A stretch of 64,000 nucleotides of DNA. Origin: a virus. The notes below the pieces were generated by a model. The model saw nothing but the letters and a program-made list of their open reading frames with translations. It was not told where the DNA came from and ran no database searches. Shown here in pieces: positions 28,952-29,497 of the stretch. Within the stretch, counting starts at the first letter, position 1. Each line of letters starts with the position of its first letter. The DNA is taken from the IMG/VR virus record IMGVR_UViG_3300045988_058615, positions 5,350-69,349 of that record. One strand, given 5' to 3'. Position numbers and translations under genes: made by a program.

Positions 28952-29497
28952 ATGAAAAGAACTATTGAAATTGAATGCCCAGATGGCTACAAGCCTATCT
29001 ACAATGCCAAAACAGGTAATGTTGAAATTGTTCCAGAGAATATTATGGAAAGAGTTAAATCTTACGAAGATGCCATGAAGATTACAGGCAGAACTTATGG
29101 TTCAGATGCCTCTAAAGTAGCTTTAGGAAAGTTGCAGTTGATTCTGGATGTGCTGAACGAAAAGCACAAGTTCAATCTGCTGACTGGAACTGTATGGTAT
29201 CCTTGGGTTCGTTTCTTTAGAATGAAGTCAGTGCCGAAAGATGCAGAGGTCATTGGACACTTCCGTTATCAGGGCGAGAAATTCGCGTTGGTTGGCATCG
29301 CGAAGTACAGCGACTATGCAGGTCTCAGCTGTTTCTATTCTGACCTTGATGTCGGCTATGCCTATTCCAATGCCGGGATGCTTGCGTGCAAATCTGAAGA
29401 GATTGCTAGATATGTATCAACCCAGTTTGGAAAACTAGTGTTTGAGGCTTGTTTTGCGAGACATTTTGAAGGTAAAGAATTTGAATGGCTTGACTGA
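28952..29497 (+). CDS. Hypothetical protein of 181 aa whose C-terminal region is homologous to the DGR TR/VR (candidate remote DGR target)
   Basis: ...KYSDYAGLSCFYSDLDVGYAYSNAGMLACKS is very similar to the tail-fibre VR1 peptide SYAGLGFFYSNYDVGAATSTVG. The 29316-29377 nucleotides align to the TR. Confidence 0.5.
   Translation: MKRTIEIECPDGYKPIYNAKTGNVEIVPENIMERVKSYEDAMKITGRTYGSDASKVALGKLQLILDVLNEKHKFNLLTGTVWYPWVRFFRMKSVPKDAEVIGHFRYQGEKFALVGIAKYSDYAGLSCFYSDLDVGYAYSNAGMLACKSEEIARYVSTQFGKLVFEACFARHFEGKEFEWLD
29294..29380 (+). repeat. Candidate second variable repeat (VR2) of the DGR
   Basis: The 62-nt core (29316-29377) has 14 mismatches against TR, of which 10 fall at TR adenines. There is an exact 10-nt anchor ATGCAGGTCT. 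Upstream of the anchor is a 3-nt indel and the homology decays. Confidence 0.4.

What the first reader, a model, noticed from the sequence alone, without database searches (positions are those of the whole stretch)
28952..29497. Candidate remote second DGR target (VR2) on the opposite strand, about 25 kb from the TR
Nucleotides 29316-29377 of a plus-strand early-module gene align to the TR. There is a perfect 10-nt anchor and 14 mismatches over 62 nt, 10 of them at TR adenines, where about a third would be expected by chance. The encoded peptide ...DYAGLSCFYSDLDVGYAYSNAG... parallels the tail-fibre VR1 peptide SYAGLGFFYSNYDVGAATSTVG. The TR Asn codons are replaced by Y/C/D/L/G codons, exactly as DGR mutagenesis would produce. 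Four non-A mismatches and a 3-nt indel upstream of the anchor mean it may instead be a drifting paralogous C-type-lectin domain or an inactive ex-target. The next gene, 29497-29976, is a secreted/membrane protein.
Basis: partly seen in the sequence, partly recalled or inferred. Interest (0 to 1): 0.8.

Follow-up and report, generated by a model that had tools for sequence, protein, structure and literature searches.

The report
Remote second DGR target, stale here
The flagged segment is a real second target of the phage's mutagenic retroelement, hypervariable across hundreds of related ~190-kb gut phages, but the copy in this genome no longer matches the resident template and sits beside a frameshifted reverse transcriptase, so it looks like a frozen relic.

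Summary
An adenine-masked 59-nt template repeat (TR) pattern hits the window three times: TR, VR1, and 29317-29375 with 2 mismatches (0 expected by chance).

The DGR reading is right for the phage family. In 23 related genomes, VR2 differs from that genome's own TR at 518 adenine and 8 non-adenine positions. Column entropy is 1.31 bits at TR adenines and 0.09 elsewhere. Four non-adenine TR polymorphisms are copied into VR2.

The 181-aa protein has 827 clusters at 90% identity, and one holds 3,514 variants. It resembles the tail fibre only in the 29-residue VR segment.

The copy in this window is out of step:
- 13-14 adenine against 10 non-adenine mismatches, plus a one-codon deletion.
- The "C" state at all four marker sites, where the resident TR and VR1 carry "T".
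- A DGR cassette 99% identical to one lineage, while the VR2 gene is 95-99% identical to another.
- A 5-nt duplication that frameshifts the resident reverse transcriptase.

So VR2 here is a legacy of an earlier TR allele and is probably not being rewritten.

A confident structure model (pLDDT 89) matches nothing in the PDB, so a C-type-lectin fold is not confirmed. The protein's function is unknown.

The parts
29287..29379 (+). VR2, the TR-homologous variable region inside the 181-aa gene. It is 93 nt here and 96 nt in relatives. The 3' 62 nt are well preserved. The 5' third has a one-codon deletion and 4 clustered non-adenine changes (29305-29313).
28952..29497 (+). Gene for the 181-aa VR2-bearing protein (P0001 = DAX00539.1). 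It matches phrog_11581 (unknown function), with no Pfam or NCBIfam hit, no in-frame TAG and no signal peptide.
4336..4433 (-). Template repeat (TR), 'T-type' allele. It has T at four marker sites where most relatives have C.
4536..4633 (-). VR1 at the 3' end of the tail-fibre gene. It has 17 adenine mismatches and 1 non-adenine mismatch to the TR, and carries T-type markers.
4511..6331 (-). Adjacent DGR target gene, a tail protein of 606 aa when its 8 in-frame TAG codons are read through (phrog_5302).
3012..4184 (-). DGR reverse transcriptase (RVT_1, GNYLSQ motif, 7 in-frame TAG). It goes out of frame after ...KFSNWNG. The conserved C-terminal part continues in another frame (ORF 2977-3195).
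3182..3191 (-). A 5-nt tandem duplication (plus strand CCATT CCATT; minus strand TGGAATGGAATGG against TGGAATGG in the six relatives aligned) that frameshifts the RT.
29497..29976 (+). Downstream 159-aa gene whose ATG overlaps the VR2 gene's stop codon (TGATG). It has a signal-peptide-like N-terminus and C-terminal hydrophobic segments. The same arrangement occurs in relatives L120-L124.
21729..21801 (-). Amber-suppressor tRNA (anticodon CTA), similar to the phage tRNA-Gln. It accounts for TAG read-through in the minus-strand late block that holds the DGR cassette.

Best explanation
The window comes from a ~190-kb gut phage whose minus-strand late block reads TAG as a sense codon. It probably belongs to the Zeta crAss-like group.

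Its tail-fibre DGR consists of a reverse transcriptase, a 98-nt template repeat and VR1. In this phage lineage the DGR has a second target about 25-27 kb away on the opposite strand. That target is a roughly 96-nt segment inside a small protein of about 181-186 aa, encoded in the tRNA-rich block that uses the standard genetic code.

The inferred mechanism is ordinary mutagenic retrohoming acting in trans. TR RNA is reverse-transcribed with adenine-specific misincorporation, and the cDNA replaces VR2, carrying across non-adenine TR polymorphisms as well. Selection then keeps glycines at several former adenine sites.

What is shown: the adenine-restricted mismatch spectrum, variability between genomes confined to adenine columns, marker transfer, and similarity restricted to the TR footprint. 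What is inferred: the RNA/cDNA intermediate, target recognition through the short GTCGGG 3' motif, and any ligand-binding role of the protein.

In this particular genome VR2 is a stale copy. It was last written by a 'C-type' TR allele. It then acquired several ordinary substitutions and a codon deletion. It now sits in a recombinant genome, or possibly a chimeric assembly, beside a 'T-type' DGR cassette whose RT is frameshifted. It is therefore probably not being diversified at present.
For: Observation:
- The adenine-masked TR pattern hits only TR, VR1 and 29317-29375 in the window, with 0 expected by chance.

Family level:
- Across 23 genomes, own-TR against VR2 gives 518 adenine and 8 non-adenine internal mismatches.
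- Entropy is 1.31 bits at the 30 TR-adenine columns, 0.086 at the 66 non-adenine columns and 0.19 in the gene flanks.
- The protein has 827 clusters at 90% identity. One cluster holds 3,514 members that differ almost only at VR codons.
- The closest relatives are 95-99% identical 5' of the VR, 97-100% identical 3' of it, and 72-82% identical inside it.
- The four TR marker sites are T in the TR, VR1 and VR2 of the two T-type genomes and C in the C-type genomes, with two single-site exceptions.
- Similarity to the tail fibre is limited to 29 residues.
- No IMG/VR contig has more than 3 pattern matches, so there is no sign of a third target.

Window copy:
- 13-14 adenine against 10 non-adenine mismatches, and VR2 markers CCCC against TR/VR1 TTTT.
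- One-codon deletion.
- RT and tail fibre are 99.3% and 99.4% identical to T-type genome 061465. The VR2 gene is 95-99% identical to C-type contigs whose RT is only 90.5% identical to the window's.
- A 5-nt duplication frameshifts the RT. All 10 relatives whose RT was translated read through in frame (404-421 aa), and the six aligned at DNA level lack the duplication.
- P0001's 90% cluster has a single member, seen on 5-7 contigs.
Against: - No reads were available, so variation within the window's own population was not tested.
- The RT frameshift and the TR/VR2 marker conflict could come from a chimeric or erroneous metagenomic assembly. I could not retrieve the RT region from an independent assembly of the same strain.
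- The VR2 ORF is intact. Its 3' 62 nt differ from a C-type TR at only 2 non-adenine sites, so partial 3'-biased retrohoming is not excluded.
- There is no canonical IMH or downstream hairpin at VR2. Fold z-scores are about 0.
- T-type marker transfer rests on two closely related genomes, which may represent one evolutionary event.
Confidence: 0.85

Rival explanations
1. VR2 in this genome is a currently active target of the resident TR. The non-adenine differences would be tolerated noise, or would lie outside the part that is rewritten.
For: - The ORF is intact.
- Mismatches are adenine-biased.
- The GC-rich 3' end (GCCGGGATGCTTGCGTGC) is retained.
- DGR cDNA integration is known to be 3'-biased (my own knowledge of BPP-1 work), so a decayed 5' third need not block rewriting of the 3' part.
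Against: - All four marker sites carry the non-resident C state, including two in the well-preserved 3' part (29326, 29374). The two T-type relatives have T at all four sites in VR2.
- There are 10 non-adenine mismatches, against 0-1 in 22 of the 23 relatives and 4 in the other.
- The RT is frameshifted.
- No near-variants of P0001 appear in its 90% cluster.
Confidence: 0.1
2. The mismatch between TR type and VR2 type, and the RT frameshift, are assembly artefacts from co-assembling two related strains. In the real genomes each VR2 would match its own TR.
For: - The mosaic identity pattern is what a chimeric contig of co-occurring strains would also produce.
- Neither the duplication junction nor the window's VR1 sequence was found in the JGI metagenome contigs.
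- These phages are abundant and very diverse.
Against: - The exact VR2 protein occurs on 5-7 contigs of about 189.5 kb from several assembly sources.
- Six non-adenine differences from a C-type TR and the codon deletion remain even if the resident TR is ignored.
- A 5-nt tandem duplication is not a typical short-read assembly error (inference).
- Mosaicism of alleles is also seen among the other genomes.
Confidence: 0.15
3. The segment is an ordinary paralogue of the tail-fibre lectin-like domain that drifts by point mutation, with no retroelement involved.
For: This window's copy alone has 10 non-adenine mismatches and an indel, which on its own would fit drift.
Against: - Similarity to the tail fibre stops at the TR boundaries.
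- Relatives show 518 adenine and 8 non-adenine mismatches.
- Entropy is about 15-fold higher at adenine columns than at other columns.
- Non-adenine TR polymorphisms are mirrored in VR2.
- There are thousands of VR-only variants on one protein backbone.
Confidence: 0.02

Closest known systems
Non-adjacent ('remote') DGR target genes, as catalogued by Wu et al. 2018 (PMC5758913) and known from Treponema denticola and Legionella
   Same: One TR and RT serve an adjacent target and a second target kilobases away. The differences are A-to-N only. Wu et al. state that phage-associated DGRs have many non-adjacent targets, nearly all within 50 kb.
   Different: - The remote target lies on the opposite strand, in the standard-code tRNA/replication block of a phage whose DGR cassette sits in an amber-recoded late block.
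- The target is a small protein of unknown function with no detectable C-type-lectin or other Pfam domain.
- In this window the copy is out of step with the resident TR.
Zeta crAss-like phage DGRs (PMC12386605, 2025; genomes such as ctoVY1, cthgQ11 and 3717_85572)
   Same: - Genomes of about 180-190 kb.
- 27 tRNAs and a CTA suppressor tRNA with amber read-through in the virion block.
- polA-type forward block with tRNAs.
- A DGR with a GxxxSQ RT containing in-frame TAGs, a tail-fibre target, and no Avd. All of this matches the window.
   Different: That paper describes only the tail-fibre target for these phages, and reports multiple TR-VR pairs only for Lera and ct1yV3. No target in the forward block is mentioned in the passages I read. 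Membership of the window in this group is inferred from shared features, not from a sequence comparison with the named genomes.
Phage DGRs with two functionally different targets (tentaclin paper, PMC10743442)
   Same: One TR diversifies two unrelated proteins that share only the VR-encoded element. The role of the second target is unclear.
   Different: - Those targets lie inside the cassette of small (33-47 kb) myoviruses.
Bordetella phage BPP-1 Mtd DGR (the prototype)
   Same: Adenine-specific TR-to-VR information flow, with the VR at the binding end of a tail-fibre protein (VR1).
   Different: - No Avd gene was seen between the target and the RT.
- There is no 14-bp G/C IMH, only a GTCGGG motif shared by VR1 and VR2 where the TR has GTCGAG.
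- No conserved hairpin lies 3' of VR2.
- VR2 is followed by about 40 more residues rather than ending the protein.

Membership tests
DGR variable region (target of mutagenic retrohoming) | The VR differs from its TR essentially only at TR adenines (lineage level) | tested here: met
   In 23 related genomes, 518 adenine and 8 non-adenine internal mismatches between VR2 and the genome's own TR. 20 IMG/VR contigs carry exactly three perfect matches to the adenine-masked pattern.
DGR variable region (target of mutagenic retrohoming) | The VR differs from its TR essentially only at TR adenines (this window's copy) | tested here: not met
   13-14 adenine against 10 non-adenine mismatches plus a 3-nt deletion. 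Against a C-type TR there are still 6 non-adenine mismatches. VR1 in the same window has 17 adenine and 1 non-adenine.
DGR variable region (target of mutagenic retrohoming) | Hypervariability among related sequences confined to TR-adenine positions, with conserved flanks | tested here: met
   Entropy is 1.31 bits at adenine columns, 0.086 at other columns and 0.19 in the flanks, over 39 sequences. Members of 90% clusters differ almost only at VR codons. Variation within a single sample was not testable.
DGR variable region (target of mutagenic retrohoming) | Information flows from TR to VR, so non-adenine TR polymorphisms appear in the VR | tested here: met
   The four marker sites agree between TR, VR1 and VR2 in 21 of the 23 relatives: both T-type genomes and 19 of the 21 C-type genomes. 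The other two C-type genomes each have a single-site exception. The window is the clear exception, with TR/VR1 TTTT and VR2 CCCC.
DGR variable region (target of mutagenic retrohoming) | A cognate DGR-type reverse transcriptase in the same genome | tested here: inconclusive
   An RVT_1 domain (E = 1.7e-18) with a GNYLSQ motif lies next to the TR. In this window a 5-nt duplication puts the last ~88 residues out of frame, whereas all 10 relatives translated read through in frame.
DGR variable region (target of mutagenic retrohoming) | An IMH-like element at the VR 3' end that differs from the TR, and a downstream hairpin or cruciform | tested here: inconclusive
   VR1 and VR2 share GTCGGG where the TR has GTCGAG, and that adenine column never varies. 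By inspection, the 20 nt from that motif are 60% (VR2), 45% (VR1) and 15% (TR) G+C. No shared longer motif exists, and no significant hairpin lies 3' of VR2.
DGR variable region (target of mutagenic retrohoming) | An accessory gene (avd or equivalent) in the cassette | tested here: inconclusive
   No Avd-sized ORF lies between the target gene, the TR and the RT in any frame. PMC12386605 reports that Avd is absent from most Zeta crAss-like DGRs. The rest of the genome was not searched with an Avd profile.
C-type-lectin-fold DGR variable proteins (Mtd, TvpA and similar) | The VR-bearing domain adopts a C-type-lectin fold | tested here: inconclusive
Zeta crAss-like phages (proposed Echekviridae) | Genome of about 155-190 kb, forward replication/tRNA block, reverse virion block, stop-codon recoding with suppressor tRNA, tail-fibre DGR | tested here: inconclusive
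   The features match (paper). No TerL, portal or MCP phylogeny or direct comparison with named genomes was done. The window has no match in the INPHARED phage set.

The most novel reading that the evidence does not exclude
The ~181-aa protein family (phrog_11581; 335 representatives at 50% identity) may be a new DGR scaffold that is not a recognisable C-type lectin. It would encode a non-virion protein made from the standard-code early/replication block and coupled to a small membrane protein. Examples would be an intracellular or envelope-associated binder used against variable host defences or for superinfection control. That would make it a DGR-diversified non-structural phage protein, rewritten in trans from the same template as the tail fibre.
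Probability: 0.25. Interest if true: 0.8.

Novelty: new member of a known kind. Interest (0 to 1): 0.55.

Why it matters
Surveys of DGRs in metagenomes usually look only next to the reverse transcriptase. Roux et al. 2021 say so explicitly. The 2025 description of Zeta crAss-like DGRs lists only the tail-fibre target for these phages.

Here one template demonstrably rewrites a second gene about 25-27 kb away in a different expression block, in an abundant group of human-gut phages. It generates thousands of variants of a protein whose function and fold are unknown. That marks the protein as important for interaction with something variable, and makes it a well-defined candidate for structural and functional work.

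The window also gives a natural example of how a DGR target falls out of use. Recombination separated the VR from the TR allele that wrote it, the VR then drifted, and the RT is broken.

Tried and rejected
- **Poor first model.** Structure prediction from the shallow alignment A1 gave pLDDT 53. It was replaced by a model from the diverse alignment A2.
- **No annotation.** Pfam, NCBIfam and a PDB sequence search of the 181-aa protein and its family found nothing. PHROGs gave only an unknown-function family.
- **No genome record.** Megablast of 28000-31000 against the INPHARED phages found only tRNA-sized hits, so there is no annotated genome record.
- **No second assembly of the RT region.** Exact look-ups of ORF 3132-3353 and ORF 4511-5686 found nothing. 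Scans of JGI metagenome contigs for the duplication junction and for the window's VR1 sequence found nothing.
- **No hairpin.** DNA folds of the VR1, VR2 and TR 3' flanks are no better than shuffles.
- **A second TR nearer to VR2.** No such repeat exists in the window. Relatives' VR2 match the known TR, so none is needed.
- **A third target.** No related contig has more than three pattern matches.

Full report
**Setting**

The window is part of a ~190-kb phage genome. The exact 181-aa protein (P0001, NCBI DAX00539.1) occurs on contigs of up to 189,584 bp.

The minus-strand block from 1 to about 17.5 kb encodes the terminase large subunit (14005-16365), the portal protein (11636-13846) and tail proteins. 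It gives long ORFs only if TAG is read through. An amber-suppressor tRNA (anticodon CTA, 21729-21801) resembles the phage's own tRNA-Gln.

The plus-strand block from 22 to 64 kb holds 26 tRNA genes, an ATPase, a nicotinamide phosphoribosyltransferase and many small genes. Almost all of its long ORFs contain no in-frame TAG.

This layout matches the amber-recoded Zeta crAss-like phages described in PMC12386605, which have about 183-189 kb, 27 tRNAs, a CTA suppressor and a tail-fibre DGR whose RT contains TAG codons. I did not test membership by phylogeny.

**The DGR cassette**

The cassette lies on the minus strand:
- a tail-protein gene at 4511-6331 (606 aa with 8 TAG codons), with VR1 at 4536-4633;
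- the TR at 4336-4433;
- an RT at 3012-4184 (RVT_1, E = 1.7e-18, GNYLSQ motif).

VR1 differs from the TR at 17 adenines and 1 other position over 98 nt.

**Checking the observation**

The reverse complement of the TR aligns without gaps to 29295-29377 in ORF 28952-29497.

The 10-nt exact run, the two peptides and the upstream 3-nt indel are all real. A TR pattern with adenines masked matches the window only at the TR, at VR1 and at 29317-29375 (2 mismatches), with none expected by chance.

**What it is in the phage lineage**

The 181-aa protein has 827 homologous clusters at 90% identity. Most are singletons on contigs of 180-193 kb. An alignment shows near-invariant flanks around the block VGGxAxxGGxAGLGxFxSxxGVGxAxSxVGML. 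The x positions fall on the AAY codons of the TR peptide VGSNANNGSNAGLSYFNSNNDVSNANSNVE.

I fetched the VR2 locus from 38 IMG/VR genomes and the RT/TR locus from the same collection, then paired them by contig. The results for the 23 paired genomes and the 39-sequence DNA alignment are:

| Measure | Result |
|---|---|
| Length of VR2 match to the genome's own TR | about 94-96 nt |
| Internal mismatches at TR adenines, 23 genomes | 518 |
| Internal mismatches at other positions, 23 genomes | 8 |
| Mean column entropy at the 30 TR-adenine columns | 1.31 bits |
| Mean column entropy at the 66 other columns | 0.086 bits |
| Mean column entropy in the gene flanks | 0.19 bits |

Two further fixed differences sit at the two ends of the repeat.

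One 90% cluster contains 3,514 distinct sequences that differ almost only at VR codons. The closest relatives of the window's gene are 95-99% identical 5' of the VR, 97-100% identical 3' of it, and only 72-82% identical inside it.

The TR has two alleles that differ at four non-adenine third-codon positions (AAY, GGY, CTY, GTY). In the two T-type genomes VR1 and VR2 both carry T at all four sites. In the 21 C-type genomes they carry C, with two single-site exceptions. This amounts to a natural marker-transfer experiment, and it shows that sequence is copied from the TR into VR2.

At the protein level the gene resembles the tail fibre only in the 29-residue VR segment. Drift of a paralogous domain is therefore excluded.

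The TR and VR2 are 26-27 kb apart in three relatives where I worked out the distance from the locus coordinates. They lie on opposite strands in the pairs I checked. No contig shows a fourth pattern match, so there is no evidence of a third target.

**The copy in this window is different**

Against the resident TR it has 13-14 adenine and 10 non-adenine mismatches, plus a one-codon deletion. Four of the non-adenine mismatches are the marker sites: the TR and VR1 are TTTT, while VR2 is CCCC. Against a C-type TR six non-adenine differences remain. Four of these cluster at 29305-29313, and the other two are at 29350 and 29373.

The genome is mosaic, as these nucleotide identities to the window show:

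| Compared genome | TR type | RT | Tail fibre | VR2 gene flanks |
|---|---|---|---|---|
| 061465 | T | 99.3% | 99.4% | 83% |
| SRR13783087_479 | C | 90.5% | 96.1% | 97-99% |
| ERZ4231396 NODE_11 | C | 90.5% | 96.0% | 95-98% |

For ERZ4231396 NODE_11, the VR2-gene figures come from another contig that carries the same P0003 protein.

The resident RT also carries a 5-nt tandem duplication. The minus strand reads TGGAATGGAATGGAAAGG where the six relatives aligned read TGGAATGGAAAGG (plus-strand 3182-3191). The duplication shifts the frame after ...KFSNWNG and leaves the conserved C-terminal ~88 residues in another frame. All 10 relatives whose RT was translated read through in frame, at 404-421 aa.

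P0001 is the only member of its 90% cluster, although it is seen on 5-7 contigs.

The simplest reading has four steps. VR2 was last written by a C-type TR. It then drifted. Recombination placed it beside a T-type cassette. Finally, the RT lesion prevents rewriting.

I could not verify the frameshift or the linkage in an independent assembly. An assembly chimera or error therefore remains a live alternative for those two points. It cannot explain the six extra substitutions or the deletion.

**Target recognition**

VR1 and VR2 share GTCGGG where the TR has GTCGAG, and that adenine column never varies. The sequence after it is GC-rich at both VRs and AT-rich at the TR. There is no longer shared motif, and the folds of the 3' flanks are no better than shuffled sequence. 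A minimal IMH-like element is plausible but not demonstrated.

**The protein**

It has no signal peptide and no Pfam, NCBIfam or PDB sequence match. It matches phrog_11581, of unknown function. It belongs to a wide family with 335 representatives at 50% identity. These are proteins of about 180-210 aa sharing LVGGxAxxGxxxGLGxFxS...VG...G.L.CK..EIA.Y.SK.FGKL.F.

The gene's stop codon overlaps the start codon of a 159-aa protein that looks secreted or membrane-anchored. That arrangement is conserved in the five related loci I fetched, L120-L124. Function remains unknown. A ligand-binding role is inferred only from the fact that the protein is DGR-diversified.

**Comparison with what is known**

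Non-adjacent targets of phage-associated DGRs within 50 kb are documented (Wu et al. 2018). Two-target phage DGRs have been discussed. The mechanism is therefore of a known kind.

Three things appear new. The first is the identity of this target family. The second is its position in the standard-code block of an amber-recoded phage. The third is the absence of a recognisable lectin fold. The Zeta crAss-like paper lists only the tail-fibre target for the matching phages. Large metagenome surveys state that they miss remote targets.

**Verdict**

VR2 is a true second DGR target in the lineage, but a stale and probably inactive copy in this genome.

Noticed in passing
window 3182-3191 (within RT gene 3012-4184, minus strand): A 5-nt tandem duplication frameshifts the DGR reverse transcriptase after ...KFSNWNG. 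The conserved C-terminal ~88 residues continue intact in another frame (ORF 2977-3195). All 10 relatives whose RT was translated read through in frame, and the six aligned at DNA level lack the duplication.
   Followed up: partly
window 1-17500 (minus strand) and tRNA 21729-21801: The late or virion block needs TAG read-through (up to 34 in-frame TAGs per gene). Most plus-strand ORFs have none. An amber-suppressor tRNA (anticodon CTA) resembles the phage's tRNA-Gln at 33777-33849.
   Followed up: partly
window 24202-24274: ARAGORN reports a tRNA of undetermined identity with a four-base anticodon (gcag). It could be a frameshift-suppressor-like or degenerate tRNA.
   Followed up: no
window 28381-28842: The 153-aa gene just upstream of the VR2 gene has an N-terminal half related to the N-terminal region of the VR2 protein family (hhalign probability 88.8%, E = 2.5e-6). 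It lacks the VR-type segment, so it may be a tandem partial paralogue.
   Followed up: partly
window 30483-31001 and 31017-32990: A small membrane protein is followed by a 657-aa flotillin/SPFH-like protein. The NCBIfam FloT match has E = 3.9e-39 but is below the curated cut-off. The protein contains 33-nt-periodic Ala/Glu/Lys-rich repeats (families D2 and D4 in the repeat scan). This is unusual cargo for a phage.
   Followed up: partly
L043 (IMGVR_UViG_3300045988_056908), TR at about 2236-2361: This relative's TR carries VR-like substitutions in its 3' third (...AATGGCGTCGGCTTTGCCGATTCCATT...) and has only 24 adenines. It looks as if VR sequence had been copied back into the TR. Its VR2 shows 4 non-adenine mismatches there. 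L048 (059870) has a similar VR-like 5' end of the TR.
   Followed up: no
window 56056-57618: A nicotinamide phosphoribosyltransferase gene (phrog_448, E = 2.5e-182) lies in the plus-strand block. It is an auxiliary NAD-salvage gene.
   Followed up: no
VR2 and VR1 columns matching TR AGT AGG CAG C, GCA and CAGC (VR2 about 29287-29330): Seven of the 30 TR-adenine columns have entropy of 0.5 bits or less, and several of these are almost always G in VR2. In this window's VR1 the same sites are also mostly G. This points to strong selection for glycine codons after mutagenesis, or to limited rewriting at the 5' end.
   Followed up: partly
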